Below are positions 1 through 62,067 of a DNA stretch of 64,000 nt, piece after piece; within the stretch, counting starts at the first letter, position 1; the number at the start of each line of letters is the position of its first letter. Source of the stretch: Escherichia phage vB_EcoM_ESCO50; sequence record OM386664.1, one strand, 5' to 3'. Below the pieces are notes generated by a model. It searched no databases and was not told the DNA's origin. It saw nothing but the letters and a program-made list of their open reading frames with translations. A program made the translations under genes and the position numbers.

Positions 1-952
1 AACAGTTGATACATAGGCTTTACAGAATCTTAACAGATGATTAACAAGAGCTAACAAGTTAATTTTTAAGGGTTATTTTGTTAAGATAATTAACAAGTTC
101 CTAACAAGTGTTTAACCTTTTTAACAAACTATTAACATGGTCACTACTCTTTTCTTATCATTCCCTTTCCTTTCTTAGTGACACCTTAAAAATGCCTTTT
201 AAAAGCTCTCTATAGCTCTCTATAGGCTCTTTTTAGTCTCTCCCTAGTATTTACCCCTCAAATGTATGAATAGCTCTTTATAGTGCTTTACAGTGCTTTT
301 AAGGCTATGCCAAAGGCTCTTACAAGGCTTTTACATGGCTTTAACAGAGATTTAACAAGGTGCTAACAAGTTGCTAACAAGCATAACTATGTAGGGGTTG
401 TTAATGGATTGTTAAAAAGATGTTAAAGGGGCTAGCATTTACGTAACTTTTACGTAACTTCAAAGTAACTTTATAGCCCCTTTTACGTAACTTTATAGCC
501 CCTATAACATACTTTTTAGTGACTATCAAGCCCTTTTTAGTAGTTCACGAGATACTAGTCAGCCTATAAGCTTATACCCTTAAAAGTTTCTTTTAAGGCT
601 CTGTAAAGCCTTATAAAGGGCTTTTTAAGGTTAGTTAATGCAATCCCTTAAGTTATATTGATAATGCTGTTATAGAGCGTTATAGAGCGTTATAGAGCGT
701 TATAGAGCGTTTAAAGGTTTGCCCTTCCCTCTCGGGCTATGGGCTTGTATTTAAGTTGATTTGATAAAAGGCTATAGGGTAGACTATAGAGTTATTGCTT
801 TTTAAGGTATGAGATAAACTCTATCGAATCAGTGGGAGATTCTGGAAAGGTGAGGAAAGGGATTGCATAAGGATTTGATAGACGTAAAAAAGCCCCATTT
901 AAGGGGCTATATAAAGGTGTCTGGGGCTATTTAGCCCCGCTGCATTGACAAC
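1..952. repeat. Repeat-rich non-coding region with several families of short direct repeats (TAACAAG >=7 copies, TTACGTAACTT x4, GTTATAGAGC x4 in tandem near 669-708, CTCTATAG pairs); iteron-like, candidate origin, genome end or protein-binding array
   Basis: No ORF >=60 aa in any frame; repeats read directly from sequence. Confidence 0.6.
885..908 (-). terminator. Rho-independent terminator on minus strand (stem AGCCCC/GGGGCT, followed by U-run), 3' of gene 953-1483; a second hairpin GGGGCT-ATTT-AGCCCC lies at ~923-938
   Basis: Inverted repeat with adjacent A-run on plus strand (U-run on minus transcript). Confidence 0.5.
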
Positions 953-1483
953 TTACAGATTTTTGATTGTATCATCGATATCTTTTTCAATATCTTTTAA
1001 AGTTTTTTCTAAATTCTTGATATTGAAAGATAAGCCCTCTCCCAATGTCTTAGAATAACCTTCAGGGCGTAAATCGTACAGGTTAATTTTTTCCACTTCA
1101 AAGAGACTAACCAGCTCACCGCTTACATTGTAAGCCATTGAAACAGTATTTACAGGGGCTTTATAAAACTTGTTCAATGACTTGATTGAACGCTCATAAG
1201 TCATTTTATAACTGTTTAACAGGTTTTTAACGTGATTGTAAATGTTTTTACACTCATCTAAGTAAATCTCTAAGAATAACGGTAATAATTTTGCGACAGC
1301 TTGCATAAAATGAGAGACTACAACGGTTGCAACATTACGACGATGGACATAATAAGCCCCTTTTCCTGATTTAGTGATAGTTGCAAAATGTACACCATTG
1401 CAGCGAAATTCATATGTATCTTTTACAGGTTTAGACATTACAGCATTTGAACGAATATAGTTGATAGCTTGAAATTTGTTCAT
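953..1483 (-). CDS. Hypothetical early protein (176 aa)
   Basis: ORF with GGAGA RBS ~8 nt upstream of ATG; own promoter/hairpin cassette upstream; no recognisable motif. Confidence 0.5.
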   Translation of the reverse strand: MNKFQAINYIRSNAVMSKPVKDTYEFRCNGVHFATITKSGKGAYYVHRRNVATVVVSHFMQAVAKLLPLFLEIYLDECKNIYNHVKNLLNSYKMTYERSIKSLNKFYKAPVNTVSMAYNVSGELVSLFEVEKINLYDLRPEGYSKTLGEGLSFNIKNLEKTLKDIEKDIDDTIKNL

Positions 1484-3377: not shown

Positions 3378-3782
3378 TTAAAGTTCTGTATAAATTGCGT
3401 CGCAGATATCACGAAAGTCGTGATTTGACAAATTACGCTGCAACCAAGTAGCGAAAAAATCAGCGATTGCAAAATTCGCGCCATACTCGACGGATAACCA
3501 TACTTTCACGGCGAATCTGAATATTTTTAAATCAAGTTCTTTATTCATTACCTTAGATTTGCCCAACATGTCAGCCATTTCATATTGTGCGCCGTCTAGC
3601 GTGATACCCGCTGCAACGTCAATCAGTGAGGTTTTTACGCTTTCAACGTCTAAGATAACACTCTGAATCTTCCCAATAATATTATATAAGGTTTCATCTG
3701 GCGCTGCTGATGTCAGAGCATTAATCCGGTTAACGGTCAAACGTGCTTTTAAGATTAATAACTCACGGTTATTAATAGTCAT
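3378..3782 (-). CDS. Hypothetical protein (134 aa)
   Basis: ORF with cassette upstream. Confidence 0.5.
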   Translation of the reverse strand: MTINNRELLILKARLTVNRINALTSAAPDETLYNIIGKIQSVILDVESVKTSLIDVAAGITLDGAQYEMADMLGKSKVMNKELDLKIFRFAVKVWLSVEYGANFAIADFFATWLQRNLSNHDFRDICDAIYTEL

Positions 3783-3867
3783 TTTAGAATCTCCAATTTA
3801 GGATTTAGCGGTAAAGCTCTTTATCTGGGGCTTACTATATCGAACTATAAGCCCCTTGTAAAGTACT
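3783..3867 (-). promoter_or_regulatory. Type B cassette (TTTACA-N17-TATAGT overlapping hairpin GGGGCTTA...TAAGCCCC)
   Basis: Repeat copy. Confidence 0.55.
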
Positions 3868-4140
3868 TTATACTAAATGCAGCTTTTTGCCTTTTACCAT
3901 GATGTAACTTGATGCGCTATTGCTATATACATCCTGATAAATTCTGCGCAAACGTCCTTTATAGTGAACTTTCCAGCTCGTTGGTATCTTTTTCCCATAT
4001 CCGGTAGCAGTTTTTTGAAGTCCAGCAATTTGCCAATCCAAAATATGTTGTTCCGCTTGTAAATCCTCAAAATTCATCACGCCGTCTACATAGTGGCGTA
4101 GAGTGACATTTAGAGTACGGCCATTGTTAGTAGTATACAT
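3868..4140 (-). CDS. Hypothetical protein (90 aa)
   Basis: ORF with cassette upstream. Confidence 0.5.
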   Translation of the reverse strand: MYTTNNGRTLNVTLRHYVDGVMNFEDLQAEQHILDWQIAGLQKTATGYGKKIPTSWKVHYKGRLRRIYQDVYSNSASSYIMVKGKKLHLV

Positions 4141-4235
4141 TTTTTGAATCTCCTAGTTTAAGGACTTTACTTAGTGGGGAAGGTCATTCCCTCCCCGTTG
4201 ATGTGTAATTTAATATATCTAAAAATCAGTGTCAA
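4141..4235 (-). promoter_or_regulatory. Type A cassette: TTGACA (~4230-4235, overlapping stop of upstream gene) N17 TAAATT (~4207-4212), 5' hairpin, RBS
   Basis: Repeat copy with consensus -35. Confidence 0.6.
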
Positions 4236-4564
4236 CTGTTTTGTTTTCGTTTGCTCATTTCTTGAGCAATTACAGCGTAGTAGTCTTTTAAGTCACTGAT
4301 ATTCAAAGCATTTATCAGAGAGTTATAATCATCGACTAACTGAAAATCATCTTTAAAGATATCGCTGATTTGATAGGTTTTTGCTTTAAATCTAAAGCTC
4401 ATCTCTAGCCGTTTTATTTGCTCATCGCTTAAACGCTCTAAAAAGCTCTCTACGAGGTTATTGCTAACCTGTTGTGTGATTGCCTTATCTGCTAAATTAT
4501 AGGCGCTGTAAGCCTTATAAAGTGCTATAATGGCGATGATTGCAGTAATTCCCATCATTAACAT
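4232..4564 (-). CDS. Hypothetical membrane protein (110 aa; N-terminal hydrophobic helix)
   Basis: ORF; N-terminus MLMMGITAIIAIIALYKAY is hydrophobic. Confidence 0.5.
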   Translation of the reverse strand: MLMMGITAIIAIIALYKAYSAYNLADKAITQQVSNNLVESFLERLSDEQIKRLEMSFRFKAKTYQISDIFKDDFQLVDDYNSLINALNISDLKDYYAVIAQEMSKRKQNS

Positions 4565-4580
4565 GATGTTTCCTCTTAAT

Positions 4581-5093
4581 TTAATTTTTAAAGATATTCA
4601 GCACCGAATCTTTTAATGATTCCAAGCGTTCTAATACTTCAGATTCTGCGCCTGAATTGCTCACCTCCTCTTTTAGTCTATCCTCTAAATCAACGCCGTC
4701 GCTATAGCACCAATCGAAAGCGTAACCAATAGAAAAACTATCTAAAACCGTTTTTCCGTTTGCGTCTACAACTTTTGCAGATAGGTAATACTCTGAAGCC
4801 TCTAAATCCCTTTTTAGCTCTTCCTGTAAGCTTATGTAAGCCTCACGGGATGGATTTTTCCGGCCTTGTTTTGCATAGTCGCTTGAGAGCTGTTTAAGGC
4901 TGTAATGTAAAGGGATTGCATATTTAAATTCATTGCGTTGATAGTTAGGATTTTTAATAGTCGCACCGCCTTGATGGTCATCTGTAAACTCCCAATTTTC
5001 AAGGGCATGACTTGGTTCATACCAAGTAACAGCCTCATAAATGATTGAGAATTTTTCTTTTACAACTTCAAAGGTAGCGTCTATAGTTTTCAT
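4581..5093 (-). CDS. Hypothetical protein (170 aa)
   Basis: ORF closely following upstream gene. Confidence 0.5.
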   Translation of the reverse strand: MKTIDATFEVVKEKFSIIYEAVTWYEPSHALENWEFTDDHQGGATIKNPNYQRNEFKYAIPLHYSLKQLSSDYAKQGRKNPSREAYISLQEELKRDLEASEYYLSAKVVDANGKTVLDSFSIGYAFDWCYSDGVDLEDRLKEEVSNSGAESEVLERLESLKDSVLNIFKN

Positions 5094-51480: not shown

Positions 51481-59511
<8,031 letters not shown>

Positions 59512-59512
<1 letters not shown>

Positions 59513-59751
59513 TACATTTTTCCTGCTCTTCTAAGTTCGTTGTAAGCAATTTCCTCTTTATACGACCTCTGAATCTCAAGAAATTGTCTCAATGATAATA
59601 AATCAGAGAATGTCATAGCAAAGAGTTGGTCAAGTGTTTCTTTACACCCTTCCATACCATAAATAGCAAGCACAAATTTCATCTCGTCTGCTTCTTCATA
59701 GGTTGCCTCTACAGCAGCATCAGTTAGTGGTGTCTGTAGAGTGTTACCCAT
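59512..59751 (-). CDS. Tail assembly chaperone, downstream frame (T part of a G/GT pair)
   Basis: ORF in -1 frame relative to 59754-60152; reachable by frameshift at the UUUUUUC site. Confidence 0.55.
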
Positions 59752-59753
59752 GT

Positions 59754-60152
59754 TTACTGAGAAGTTAGGCTTTTGAAAATGCTTGCTTCGAAAAAACTTC
59801 CGAAGTTTGCCTCCAGCGCAAATGCTAAGTAATCAATAAATTCACCATAGTTTGCTTGGAAGTATGTATCAATATTAAGTGGGAAGTCATCAACAGTTGC
59901 CCCTTGAAATAACAGGGTAGCCATTTCTTCAAGGTTAATTTCTTCAATTCTGTCAAAACAAGCTTCAACAAGTTCTTTAAATGGAACCGTCGGAGCTTCT
60001 TTCTTACCCTTGTCAGTCAGACTTGATAGCATCTGTGCAAAGGTTGGAACAACAATTTTACCCAACTTCATAGACATCTTGATACCATCTCTTGCCCCAA
60101 GCAGAATGATATTTACTTTCTTACCATTAATTACTCTAGATTCTGTTTTCAT
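59754..60152 (-). CDS. Tail assembly chaperone (G-like, 132 aa)
   Basis: Between tube and tape measure; slippery site near 3' end. Confidence 0.6.
   Translation of the reverse strand: MKTESRVINGKKVNIILLGARDGIKMSMKLGKIVVPTFAQMLSSLTDKGKKEAPTVPFKELVEACFDRIEEINLEEMATLLFQGATVDDFPLNIDTYFQANYGEFIDYLAFALEANFGSFFEASIFKSLTSQ
59790..59796 (-). other. Candidate -1 programmed ribosomal frameshift slippery heptamer U UUU UUC near the 3' end of the chaperone gene
   Basis: Heptamer read on minus strand; -1 frame stays open into the ATG of ORF 59512-59751. Confidence 0.55.
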
Positions 60153-60225
60153 TGTGATTCCTTAATACTTTTAAAAGAAACAAAAAAGGGGAAGACCTTT
60201 TAAAGTCTCCCCCTTATAGGATTTA

Positions 60226-60672
60226 TTAAACACTTGACGCTGGAATTGTAGAAGTGTAGTCTAGCTTCTCACAACCAAAAACCCAAGTTTTAGAGTTCTG
60301 GTCACGACCAAGTTCAATCTGTGGTAATTCCTGCAACCAAGCGTTAATACCAGTTGCCAGAACAGAGCCTGATGGGTCGTAGATTACGAAGTTAGAAGAG
60401 ATATCTTCTTCAAGTTCCATATTGTCTTGTTTAGCTTGAATTGCAGAAAGCATCTGGTTAGAGAGAGAAGTCTGCATTAACTCAATCTCAATAGTACCTG
60501 TCTTGTCTGCATTTCTTGTCAGAGCAACCTGACCACCTGCACCAACAACTGGTGTCACAAGTGGTGATGTTCTCTGTAGACGTAAGAATGAGTCTGGGGC
60601 AAAGCCTTCAATGGCAATACCATTCCAGCTACATACAACGTCTTTAGGGGAATATTGCTGATACATAGCCAT
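60226..60672 (-). CDS. Tail tube protein (148 aa)
   Basis: Size and position between sheath-sized gene and chaperones. Confidence 0.55.
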   Translation of the reverse strand: MAMYQQYSPKDVVCSWNGIAIEGFAPDSFLRLQRTSPLVTPVVGAGGQVALTRNADKTGTIEIELMQTSLSNQMLSAIQAKQDNMELEEDISSNFVIYDPSGSVLATGINAWLQELPQIELGRDQNSKTWVFGCEKLDYTSTIPASSV

Positions 60673-60687
60673 TCCAATTTACCTCTA

Positions 60688-62067
60688 TTATTCGTAAGCC
60701 ACTGTACCTTTCAAGTCAACATCCAAGATAGCCCCTGCTAAGATACCTGCGAAGGTAATGTCTTTCAGGATACGTGCTTTCTTGTCTGCTAAAGCAACTT
60801 GAGAGGCTTTAGGAACATTAACTGTGTAAGATGACAGGAAGTGTCTGTTGACTGCTCTTTGCAGAGAGGTTTCAATGACTTGACGAATGCGGGTAATACC
60901 AGTATCATCATAAGTAATCTTACCACCCTTCTGGTTAATTAGCAAGTCTCTCAGAGAAGTTTTCAGGTCTGATTCTAACCAGTCAACACCACGGATGATA
61001 TCAATCCATTCCCCACCAGAAGTAATCCCTCTACGAACCACTGGAACACCACCATCAAGGTCAATAAAGTTACAGTGACGTGCATCTAAAGCAGACTTCT
61101 GAATACTTGTCAGAGGTCTCTGATTAGATGGTTGTAGAGAAGCTGCTACACCAGTTAACTGAGCATTACCCCAAGCAATTGACCCTGCGTCATATGGAGC
61201 ACCATAAGCAATGTATGCCATTTCTGGATAGTCTTCTGCCGCTGCGTGATGCCACAAGCAAACTGTACGAGTGTACATATTCTTAGCAAGCTGTGCTGGA
61301 ACATCATTTGCACTGGCTAATTCTGTCCCTTGCAGTGCTGCTACATCAGAGTTAGCTGTAAAGAAGATTTTCTTGCGAGCCTGAATCTCAGAAGCCATTG
61401 CTAAGACAAACTGTTGAGTTCTGTCTTCTGCTGCAATGAAATACCAGTCAGTAGAATAAGCTTCAATGGCTGCCAGAGCAGTTGATGCTGTATCAGCAGT
61501 TGTACTTGCAATATATACAGTCTGTGCTGTGGTTGTTACTTTCACAAAGTCATTATCACCAGCTTTGGTAATAATCATTGTGGCAGAAGCACCACTACCA
61601 GTTACGTTCACAGAAACCTTATCTTTGATTGTTGGGTCAGCTTCAATCTGTGTTTTAAACTGTTGCAACACTACTTCAGCAGTATCTTCATCAGTATCTT
61701 CATCAGTTTCTTCTGTAATCTGTGAGGTGTACTGGAATGACTGAGAGATTCCACCGCTCACAGCTACAGTCAAAGAATAATCGGTGCCCTCAGTAACTTC
61801 ATCAGGAATTGATACAGTGTACTGCATAGCACGTCTACCAATATAAAGCTGAGTTACTTTAGGAGTCTGACTCCAAAGTTGTTTAGCAGCCTTATATGCA
61901 GCAGACCTCTCATCGAAATCTTCAGCAACTTCAGTTAAGGAAGTGTAGCCACGAACTCTTTCTTCAAAGTTATCTGTTGAAGCTAAGAATAGTGGCAAAC
62001 CAAAACCTTCTCTTGTAGTTCCTGCGGTGTTCAATGTAATATCTACATTAACAATTGGATTCCACAT
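60688..62067 (-). CDS. Contractile tail sheath protein (459 aa)
   Basis: Size and position directly upstream of the tube gene. Confidence 0.55.
   Translation of the reverse strand: MWNPIVNVDITLNTAGTTREGFGLPLFLASTDNFEERVRGYTSLTEVAEDFDERSAAYKAAKQLWSQTPKVTQLYIGRRAMQYTVSIPDEVTEGTDYSLTVAVSGGISQSFQYTSQITEETDEDTDEDTAEVVLQQFKTQIEADPTIKDKVSVNVTGSGASATMIITKAGDNDFVKVTTTAQTVYIASTTADTASTALAAIEAYSTDWYFIAAEDRTQQFVLAMASEIQARKKIFFTANSDVAALQGTELASANDVPAQLAKNMYTRTVCLWHHAAAEDYPEMAYIAYGAPYDAGSIAWGNAQLTGVAASLQPSNQRPLTSIQKSALDARHCNFIDLDGGVPVVRRGITSGGEWIDIIRGVDWLESDLKTSLRDLLINQKGGKITYDDTGITRIRQVIETSLQRAVNRHFLSSYTVNVPKASQVALADKKARILKDITFAGILAGAILDVDLKGTVAYE

What the first reader, a model, noticed from the sequence alone, without database searches (positions are those of the whole stretch)
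59512..60152. Programmed -1 frameshift in the tail assembly chaperone pair
Between the tube and tape-measure genes are two ORFs of 132 and 79 aa in different frames. About 40 nt before the stop of the first lies the heptamer U UUU UUC (plus-strand ~59790-59796). Hand translation shows the -1 frame stays open from that site into the ATG frame of the second ORF, so a slip would give a fusion (...GSFF then RSKHFQKPNFSVN then MGNTLQ...). This is the conserved G/GT arrangement of tailed phages and supports the tail-module annotation.
Basis: partly seen in the sequence, partly recalled or inferred. Interest (0 to 1): 0.5.

Follow-up and report, generated by a model that had tools for sequence, protein, structure and literature searches.

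The report
Known tail-chaperone frameshift in a Felix O1-like phage

Summary
On the minus strand a 132-aa tail assembly chaperone gene (60152..59754) is followed by a 79-aa ORF in the -1 frame (59751..59512). They lie between the tube gene and the tape-measure gene. An in-phase U_UUU_UUC heptamer (59796..59790) sits 33 nt before the first stop. The -1 frame is open from 59832 to a TAA that overlaps the tape-measure ATG, giving a 213-aa fusion.

Comparative evidence supports a programmed shift:
- In 17 diverged lineages (Ounavirinae, Vequintavirinae, marine and GC-rich contigs) the invariant Phe-Phe is always encoded NNT TTT TTY, and the -1 frame is always open.
- The -1 frame evolves as coding sequence, and its first ATG is not conserved.
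- A Buttiauxella prophage encodes the same fusion architecture as one unshifted ORF, and there the Phe-Phe codons are TCA TTC TTC.

I found no conserved downstream RNA structure. A GGAGG lies 13 nt upstream, but only about half the lineages have it.

The frameshift is already annotated as a joined CDS in phages Meda and Moogle and is described in the Moogle, Mijalis and Michonne genome papers. The verdict is: correct, ordinary, already known. The frameshift has not been shown experimentally in this clade, and RNA-polymerase slippage would give the same protein.

The parts
59754..60152 (-). ORF1, the G-type tail assembly (tape-measure) chaperone, 132 aa
59790..59796 (-). Slippery heptamer U_UUU_UUC (codons AG-U UUU UUC = Ser119 Phe120 Phe121), in X_XXY_YYZ phase
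   Evidence: position 356 of ORF1, phase 2. It is the only shift-prone in-phase heptamer in the overlap. It is invariant in 54 related loci: T6C in 51 and T7A in 3 (L011 read by eye), and it is also present in L056 and L057.
59810..59814 (-). Shine-Dalgarno-like GGAGG, 13 nt upstream of the heptamer; possible auxiliary 5' stimulator (inferred)
   Evidence: Sequence. The anti-SD duplex is -9.3 kcal/mol, and only 0.6% of 19-nt windows on this strand reach -9. The number of GGAGG expected in a 12-nt window is 0.004. It is present in 7 of 15 lineages and absent in SarahDanielle despite the same Leu-Glu-Ala residues.
59512..59832 (-). Open -1 frame, from 36 nt upstream of the heptamer to the TAA that overlaps the tape-measure ATG
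   Evidence: open 869..1189 in the oriented segment = 59832..59512.
59512..59790 (-). T extension read after the shift: 92 codons plus stop (RSKHFQKPNFSVNMGNTLQ...AGKM)
   Evidence: Coding signature in this frame: variable sites at codon positions 1/2/3 = 15/9/41, and synonymous:nonsynonymous = 109:42 against 18:131 and 13:142 in the other frames. PHROG 4963 'tail assembly chaperone', 2.8e-55.
59512..59751 (-). ORF2 as listed mechanically (ATG to TAA, 79 aa); probably not translated on its own
   Evidence: There is no SD upstream of its ATG. The first ATG in the -1 frame ranges from +13 to +65 codons among relatives, often inside the conserved T region.
57269..59512 (-). Tape measure protein gene, 747 aa; its ATG overlaps the T stop codon by 1 nt (TAATG)
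   Evidence: PF20155 TMP_3, 1.4e-16; stop context.
60226..60672 (-). Tail tube gene, 148 aa, upstream neighbour
   Evidence: PF11681, 1.1e-7. The homologous Sf14 gp40 was modelled into the Sf14 helical tail reconstruction together with the sheath protein gp39 (PMC11821841).
60186..60215 (-). Intrinsic-terminator-like hairpin (13 bp plus a T run) between the tube and chaperone genes
   Evidence: Annotated as a terminator at the same place in phage Meda.

Best explanation
This is the G/GT-type programmed -1 ribosomal frameshift of the tail assembly chaperone of a Felix O1-like myophage (Ounavirinae). Most ribosomes translate ORF1 to its stop and make the 132-aa chaperone G. On U_UUU_UUC a minority slip back one base. 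With tRNA-Phe on UUU in the P site and on UUC in the A site, both tRNAs re-pair on UUU UUU. Those ribosomes then read CGA AGC... in the -1 frame up to the TAA that overlaps the tape-measure ATG, making a 213-aa GT protein (G residues 1-121 plus a 92-aa T extension). By analogy with lambda, G and the G part of GT coat the tape measure protein, and the T part recruits the tube protein, so the fixed low GT:G ratio controls tail assembly. The site appears to work without a 3' RNA structure. A GGAGG 13 nt upstream may raise efficiency in this lineage. Shown here: the sequence anatomy, its conservation, that the T frame is protein-coding, and that the fusion architecture exists as a real protein. 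Inferred: that the ribosome is what slips, the efficiency, and the roles of G and T.
For: (1) Anatomy: an in-phase heptamer, an open -1 frame, and placement between the tube and tape-measure genes.
(2) ORF1 is a Phage_TAC_15 member.
(3) In 15 diverged lineages (26-99% identity) found by tblastn or pattern scan, and in 2 more found by protein search, the invariant Phe-Phe is always encoded NNT TTT TTY and the -1 frame is always open to just before the tape-measure gene. Given each lineage's own codon usage, the joint probability for 11 lineages is about 1e-7.
(4) Natural control: a Buttiauxella prophage has the same ENFGSFF motif encoded TCA TTC TTC, which is not slippery. It has no long -1 overlap. 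It has instead a separate 201-aa ORF that aligns collinearly across the predicted junction of the window's fusion (E 5e-13; T part alone 9e-7).
(5) The T frame evolves as coding sequence, and its first ATG is not conserved and often lies inside the conserved region.
(6) The heptamer and overlap are nearly invariant: 2 of 43 sites vary, against 65 of 236 in the T-only region, p = 7e-4.
(7) U_UU.U_UU.C is among the heptamers that shift above 0.1% in E. coli without stimulators, and IS elements use it (PMC4066793).
(8) Meda and Moogle carry a joined CDS over the same range. In Meda 641 nt + 1 = 642 = 214 codons, which fits only a -1 shift. The Moogle, Mijalis and Michonne papers describe the frameshift; the Michonne paper states that it is to the -1 frame.
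(9) Mass spectrometry of Sf14 particles detected the product of the T-ORF homologue FDI99_gp115, so that frame is translated.
Against: The papers and records I read contain no direct demonstration of a GT fusion or of ribosomal slippage for any Ounavirinae phage. No conserved 3' stimulatory structure was found: fold z-scores are about 0 and the alifold energy is -6.2 kcal/mol. The upstream GGAGG is absent from about half the lineages. In Sf14 the T-ORF product was detected but the G-ORF product was not, which is odd if T exists only as GT. A one-base insertion by RNA polymerase in the T6 run would give exactly the same protein.
Confidence: 0.85

Rival explanations
1. The frame change is made by RNA polymerase rather than by the ribosome. 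A one-base U insertion in the U6 run gives an mRNA that encodes the same GT protein by standard translation (AGU UUU UUU CGA = S F F R). The slip might be helped by the small hairpin just upstream, so that hairpin plus U run resembles an intrinsic terminator.
For: The product would be identical, as the sequence shows. The terminator scan flagged CUGGAGGCAAACUUCGG followed by AAGUUUUUUC at 59816..59800. Stem-loop-stimulated transcriptional slippage on short runs is described in the Atkins et al. review (PMC5009743).
Against: The run is only 6 T (7 in three marine lineages). The bacterial transcriptional slippage described in that review involves runs of about 9 A or T (PMC5009743). The upstream hairpin is weak (z = -1.1) and absent in about half of the lineages that keep the heptamer. 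No lineage has lengthened the run, as selection for polymerase slippage would favour.
Confidence: 0.07
2. ORF2 is translated independently as a 79-aa protein from its own ATG, 2 nt after the ORF1 stop, by termination-reinitiation coupling. No fusion protein is made.
For: An ATG follows the ORF1 stop closely in the window (UAAACAUG). Many records annotate two separate CDSs. In Sf14 the ORF2 homologue was detected by mass spectrometry without the ORF1 product.
Against: There is no SD before the ATG. In relatives the first -1-frame ATG lies +13 to +65 codons after the heptamer, inside or beyond conserved T residues in phiEa21-4, Wc4-1, CR8, A7_1 and PT11-V22. The -1-frame peptide upstream of the ATG (RSKHFQKP.F) is conserved. 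This reading does not explain the invariant NNT TTT TTY codons or the collinear single-ORF GT homologue in Buttiauxella, which aligns from KHFQKPNF onward.
Confidence: 0.05
3. The heptamer and the open -1 frame are coincidental, and the run of T is simply how Ser-Phe-Phe happens to be encoded.
For: For a single genome, an in-phase XXXYYYZ of any kind is expected about 0.10 times in the 79-nt overlap. Two other in-phase shift-prone heptamers in the window lead nowhere.
Against: Codon choice is conserved in 11 independent lineages, P about 1e-7, including a 65% GC contig. The -1 frame is always open for 79-124 codons. The only relative with an unshifted GT gene uses TCA TTC TTC.
Confidence: 0.02

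Closest known systems
Lambda gpG/gpGT and the conserved tail-assembly-chaperone frameshift of tailed phages (Levin 1993; Xu, Hendrix and Duda 2004; as summarised in PMC5009743)
   Same: Two overlapping ORFs between the major tail/tube gene and the tape-measure gene. An in-phase slippery heptamer lies near the end of the first ORF. A -1 shift gives an N-terminally identical, C-terminally extended protein. No obvious RNA stimulator is found (the lambda comparison on this last point is from my own knowledge).
Annotated frameshifted tape-measure chaperones of Felix O1-like phages: Meda MH586731, Moogle KM236239, Mijalis, Michonne
   Same: The same gene pair, the same range and the same joined CDS. 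The window region is 98.5% identical to Meda. Moogle has the identical heptamer context. The frameshift is described in PMC4319497, PMC5543628 and PMC4591319.
   Different: Nothing of substance; the window is another member of the same group. Most other GenBank records of the group annotate two separate CDSs instead.
E. coli dnaX -1 frameshift (A_AAA_AAG with a 5' SD-like element and a 3' hairpin)
   Same: A tandem-slippage heptamer, plus an SD-like GGAGG upstream at 13 nt. This is within the 6-17 nt window used for such stimulators in PMC4066793.
   Different: No 3' hairpin is found at the usual 5-9 nt spacing. The SD-like element is not conserved across the family. [quoted passage not shown]
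Buttiauxella noackiae prophage tail module (L055): G and a GT-like protein as two separate genes
   Same: A homologous G (about 48% identity), with the same ENFGSFF motif and a T-like C-terminal region, next to a TMP_3 tape-measure gene.
   Different: There is no slippery codon run (TCA TTC TTC) and no long -1 overlap. The long form is a separate 201-aa ORF with its own diverged G-like domain.

Membership tests
G/GT-type tail assembly chaperone frameshift (Xu, Hendrix and Duda 2004) | Two ORFs located between the major tail/tube gene and the tape-measure gene | tested here: met
   The minus-strand order is sheath, tube, ORF1, ORF2, TMP. The same synteny is seen in all relatives.
G/GT-type tail assembly chaperone frameshift (Xu, Hendrix and Duda 2004) | The second ORF overlaps the 3' end of the first in the -1 (or +1) frame and is open across the junction | tested here: met
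   The -1 frame is open for 79 nt before the ORF1 stop and 242 nt beyond it. The +1 frame closes after 10 nt.
G/GT-type tail assembly chaperone frameshift (Xu, Hendrix and Duda 2004) | A slippery sequence in the correct phase inside the overlap | tested here: met
   T_TTT_TTC at 59796..59790, phase 2.
G/GT-type tail assembly chaperone frameshift (Xu, Hendrix and Duda 2004) | The site and the frame arrangement are conserved among diverged relatives beyond what the protein sequence requires | tested here: met
   Seventeen lineages all use NNT TTT TTY. Joint P is about 1e-7 for 11 lineages. The unshifted Buttiauxella homologue uses TCA TTC TTC.
G/GT-type tail assembly chaperone frameshift (Xu, Hendrix and Duda 2004) | The second ORF lacks its own conserved translation start | tested here: met
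   The first -1-frame ATG lies at +13 to +65 codons, and there is no SD in the window.
G/GT-type tail assembly chaperone frameshift (Xu, Hendrix and Duda 2004) | Two proteins with a common N-terminus are made at a fixed low ratio | not testable with these tools
   The only indirect evidence is that the T-ORF homologue product was detected by mass spectrometry in Sf14 particle preparations.
G/GT-type tail assembly chaperone frameshift (Xu, Hendrix and Duda 2004) | G binds the tape measure, T binds the tube protein, and both are needed for tail assembly | not testable with these tools
   Inferred from lambda (PMC5009743).
Pfam PF21822 Phage_TAC_15 | HMM score above the curated gathering threshold | tested here: met
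   69.8 bits against 22, E 4.2e-19, covering residues 9-124.
Tail assembly chaperone fold (HK97 gp10-like / XkdN-like) | Structural similarity of the G model to solved chaperones | tested here: inconclusive
   [not shown]
dnaX-type stimulated -1 frameshift | A 3' stem-loop or pseudoknot 5-9 nt downstream of the heptamer | tested here: not met
   Fold z-scores for +1..+40 and +1..+60 are about 0 in the window and most relatives. The alifold consensus is -6.2 kcal/mol. There was no Rfam match.
dnaX-type stimulated -1 frameshift | A 5' SD-like element 6-17 nt upstream | tested here: inconclusive
   GGAGG at -18..-14, duplex -9.3 kcal/mol, top 0.6% of windows. It is present in only 7 of 15 lineages.
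Programmed transcriptional slippage | A long homopolymer run (about 9 A or T in bacteria) | tested here: not met
   The run is T6 in 51 loci and T7 in 3. The criterion is taken from PMC5009743.

The most novel reading that the evidence does not exclude
The frame change in this chaperone family is made by RNA polymerase, not by the ribosome. A terminator-like hairpin (59816..59800) abutting the U6 run would promote a one-base insertion, giving the same GT protein. That would be a new mechanism for the G/GT class. My evidence disfavours this reading but does not exclude it. A weaker alternative is that the T-frame product is retained in particles, as the Sf14 mass spectrometry hints.
Probability: 0.05. 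Interest if true: 0.5.

Novelty: already known. Interest (0 to 1): 0.12.

Why it matters
The finding confirms the tail-module annotation and shows that ORF1 and ORF2 should be annotated as G plus a joined GT CDS, which most GenBank records of this phage group still do not do. Two by-products are modestly useful. First, the slippery U_UUU_UUY is hard-wired into an invariant N-[FY]-[GS]-[SC]-F-F motif across the sampled relatives (Ounavirinae, Vequintavirinae, marine phages). Second, a Buttiauxella prophage has resolved G and GT into two genes and lost the slippery codons. That prophage is a ready-made natural control for asking why frameshifting is kept elsewhere. None of this changes current understanding.

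Tried and rejected
(1) Downstream stimulatory structure. I folded +1..+40, +60 and +90 nt after the heptamer in 15 lineages, with shuffles. The z-scores scatter around 0. RNAalifold on 11 Ounavirinae sequences gave -6.2 kcal/mol with no convincing helix.

(2) A hairpin at 59741..59707, 49 nt downstream of the heptamer (CUCUACAG...CUGUAGAG). It is present in Felixounavirus, Suspvirus and Mooglevirus. Only 61% of cells pair across Ounavirinae, covariation is weak, and it lies too far away for a classical stimulator.

(3) An Rfam scan of 59300-60300 found nothing near threshold.

(4) An upstream hairpin or terminator-like element as a conserved feature. It is absent in about half of the lineages.

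(5) Structure prediction of the full GT fusion. Only G was modelled.

(6) Foldseek against the PDB found no significant hit.

(7) The Sf14 supplementary files held no peptide-level data for gp41/gp42.

(8) The search for homologous proteins with the fusion as query returned only G-length proteins and no fused entries.

(9) Site variability within Felixounavirus alone. There is too little divergence for the test to be informative. An earlier ungapped comparison of the upstream part of G was invalid because of indels (first line only).

(10) Two other in-phase shift-prone heptamers in the window give -1 extensions of only 5-6 codons, so they are not programmed sites.

Full report
**What the window is.** The region is 98-99% identical to many Felix O1-like myophages (Ounavirinae, Felixounavirus); the best match is Escherichia phage vB_EcoM_ESCO56 at 99.2%. 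The genes lie on the minus strand in this order:

| Gene | Coordinates | Evidence |
|---|---|---|
| Sheath | 62067..60688 | DUF3383 |
| Tube | 60672..60226 | PF11681 |
| ORF1 | 60152..59754, 132 aa | see below |
| ORF2 | 59751..59512, 79 aa | see below |
| Tape measure protein | 59512..57269 | PF20155 |

The Sf14 homologues of the sheath and tube proteins (gp39, gp40) were modelled into the helical tail reconstruction of that phage (PMC11821841).

**Checking the observation.**
- The minus-strand sequence reads ...GGA AGT TTT TTC GAA GCA..., so TTTTTTC (59796..59790) starts at the third base of the Ser codon. That is the X_XXY_YYZ phase needed for tandem -1 slippage.
- The heptamer lies 33 nt before the ORF1 stop codon.
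- The -1 frame is open from 59832 to the TAA at 59514..59512, which overlaps the tape-measure ATG by one base. The +1 frame closes 10 nt after the ORF1 stop.
- The shifted reading is ...GSFF RSKHFQKPNFSVN MGNTLQ..., and the fusion is 213 aa.

For one genome alone the evidence is weak. An in-phase XXXYYYZ of any kind is expected about 0.10 times in a 79-nt overlap. In-phase TTTTTTC itself occurs only twice in about 55 kb of coding sequence.

The fold evidence is therefore compatible but not decisive. The Pfam match is what places ORF1 in the family.

**Comparative evidence.** This is the main evidence for a programmed shift.

*Relatives sampled.* A tblastn search with the hypothetical fusion found relatives down to about 27% identity. 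I fetched Suspvirus, Mooglevirus, Hafnia phage SarahDanielle, Erwinia phiEa21-4, Pectobacterium Wc4-1, three Vequintavirinae (CR8, 24-2-1, A7_1) and Alteromonas PT11-V22. I also took IMG/VR contigs, including a 65% GC one, and two metagenomic contigs reached through an independent protein search.

*Result.* In every one the invariant Phe-Phe of the motif N-[FY]-[GS]-[SC]-F-F is encoded NNT TTT TTC, or TTT in three marine lineages, in the same phase. The -1 frame is open from before the heptamer to just upstream of the tape-measure gene, for 79-124 codons.

*Statistics and bias.* Given each lineage's own Phe, Ser and Cys codon usage, the chance that 11 independent lineages all use NNT + TTT is about 1e-7. 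The IMG/VR scan used the FF peptide as one of its patterns, so it is biased at the amino-acid level. It is not biased at the codon level, and the tblastn and protein searches were not biased at all.

**A natural control.** A Buttiauxella noackiae chromosome carries a prophage-like tail module with a G homologue (about 48% identity). Its ENFGSFF motif is encoded GGC TCA TTC TTC, which is not slippery, and the -1 overlap is only 19 nt. Immediately downstream is a separate 201-aa ORF. It aligns collinearly with the window's hypothetical fusion right across the predicted junction (query 81-208, E 5e-13). The T part alone aligns from KHFQKPNF onward at E 9e-7. This shows two things. The G-T polypeptide is a real protein architecture. 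And the T-run is not forced by the amino acids, because it is absent exactly where no shift is needed.

**The T frame is coding but has no start of its own.**
- Among Felixounavirus and Suspvirus sequences, variable sites in the T-only region fall 15/9/41 on codon positions 1/2/3. Synonymous:nonsynonymous differences are 109:42 in the T frame, against 18:131 and 13:142 in the other two frames.
- The first ATG in the -1 frame ranges from +13 to +65 codons after the heptamer among relatives, often inside conserved T residues. The peptide upstream of the window's ATG (RSKHFQKP.F) is conserved as far as phiEa21-4. The window's ATG has no Shine-Dalgarno sequence.
- The heptamer plus the overlap is nearly invariant: 2 of 43 sites vary, against 65 of 236 in the T-only region, p = 7e-4. 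Within Felixounavirus alone there is too little divergence to test this.

**Stimulators.** I found no conserved 3' structure.
- Fold energies for the 40-90 nt after the heptamer have z-scores around 0.
- RNAalifold gives -6.2 kcal/mol.
- Rfam has no match.
- A hairpin 49 nt downstream (59741..59707) is limited to three genera and pairs in only 61% of cells.

Upstream, GGAGG (59814..59810) lies 13 nt from the heptamer. This is inside the 6-17 nt range used for SD-like stimulators in Sharma et al. 2014 (PMC4066793). Its anti-SD duplex (-9.3 kcal/mol) is reached by only 0.6% of windows on this strand. However, only 7 of 15 lineages have it, and SarahDanielle encodes the same Leu-Glu-Ala without it. 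I treat it as a possible lineage-specific booster, not as part of the core signal. U_UU.U_UU.C is listed among heptamers that shift above 0.1% in E. coli without any stimulator, and IS elements use it. A low level is what the lambda precedent requires: the G:GT ratio there is about 30:1 (PMC5009743).

**Rival explanations.**

*Transcriptional slippage.* Inserting one U in the U6 run would give the identical protein (AGU UUU UUU CGA). The terminator scan noted that a small hairpin plus the U run looks terminator-like, and hairpin-stimulated slippage is known (PMC5009743). Against this, the run is only 6-7 T in all 54 loci checked, whereas the bacterial slippage described in that review uses runs of about 9. 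The hairpin is also weak and not conserved. I give this reading 0.07.

*Independent translation of ORF2 by reinitiation.* This fits the two-CDS annotations and the Sf14 result, where the T-ORF product was detected but the G-ORF product was not. It does not explain the conserved codons, the non-conserved ATG or the Buttiauxella fusion homologue. I give it 0.05.

*Coincidence.* The comparative data effectively exclude it.

**Comparison with what is known.** This is the G/GT frameshift of Xu, Hendrix and Duda (2004), in its myophage form. It is not new for this clade.
- Phages Meda (MH586731) and Moogle (KM236239) carry a joined CDS over exactly this range. Meda's is labelled 'Tape measure chaperone frameshift product', and its 641 nt + 1 = 214 codons fits only a -1 shift.
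[quoted passage not shown] The Michonne paper specifies the -1 frame (PMC4319497, PMC5543628, PMC4591319).
- Most other records of the group annotate two separate CDSs.
- I found no experimental demonstration for any member.

**Verdict.** It is already known and of low interest (0.12). Two by-products are worth recording: the slippery site is conserved in every sampled relative that has the overlapping two-ORF arrangement, and the Buttiauxella prophage provides an unshifted natural control.

Noticed in passing
L055 (Buttiauxella noackiae GCA_000737905.1, JPRU01000001.1) 4001-4986: A prophage-like tail module in which G (126 aa) and a GT-like protein (201 aa) are two separate genes. The conserved SFF motif is encoded TCA TTC TTC, which is not slippery. 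The 201-aa protein aligns collinearly across the window's predicted frameshift junction (E 5e-13).
   Followed up: partly
window 60186-60215 (minus strand): A strong intrinsic-terminator-like hairpin (13 bp, then a T run) between the tube gene and the chaperone gene, annotated as a terminator in phage Meda. It could lower chaperone and tape-measure transcription relative to sheath and tube.
   Followed up: partly
window 59219-59225 (minus strand), inside the tape-measure gene: An in-phase A_AAA_AAG, which Sharma et al. associate with high frameshifting efficiency in E. coli, about 96 codons into the tape-measure gene. A -1 slip would terminate after 5 codons. It is probably incidental but would waste some tape-measure translation.
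   Followed up: partly
window 3453-3459 (minus strand), in a 139-codon stop-to-stop ORF 3797..3378: The only other in-phase T_TTT_TTC in the window, 82 nt before the end of its ORF. The -1 extension is only 6 codons, so it is probably not programmed.
   Followed up: partly
Shigella phage Sf14 (L053 801-1438; PMC11821841 Table 1): Mass spectrometry of Sf14 particle preparations detected the T-ORF product (gp42 = FDI99_gp115) but not the G-ORF product (gp41 = FDI99_gp116). This is unexpected if T exists only as part of GT and if the chaperones are absent from virions. The preparation was a pelleted lysate, so carry-over is possible.
   Followed up: partly
window 59707-59741 (minus strand): A hairpin, CUCUACAG...CUGUAGAG, just after the ORF1 stop and 49 nt downstream of the heptamer. 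It is stronger in Suspvirus and Mooglevirus (CCCCAU/AUGGGG) but is not kept in more distant Ounavirinae. Its role is unknown.
   Followed up: yes
[not shown]
   Followed up: no
window 59754-60152 against 59512-59751, compared across 24 Felixounavirus sequences: Within the genus, the first 320 nt of the G gene are much more variable (19% of sites) than the T-only region (3%).
   Followed up: no
window 59512: The T-frame stop and the tape-measure start overlap by one base (TAATG), and the same context is seen in close relatives. This suggests translational coupling of the tape-measure gene to the minority of ribosomes in the -1 frame, in addition to any de novo initiation.
   Followed up: no
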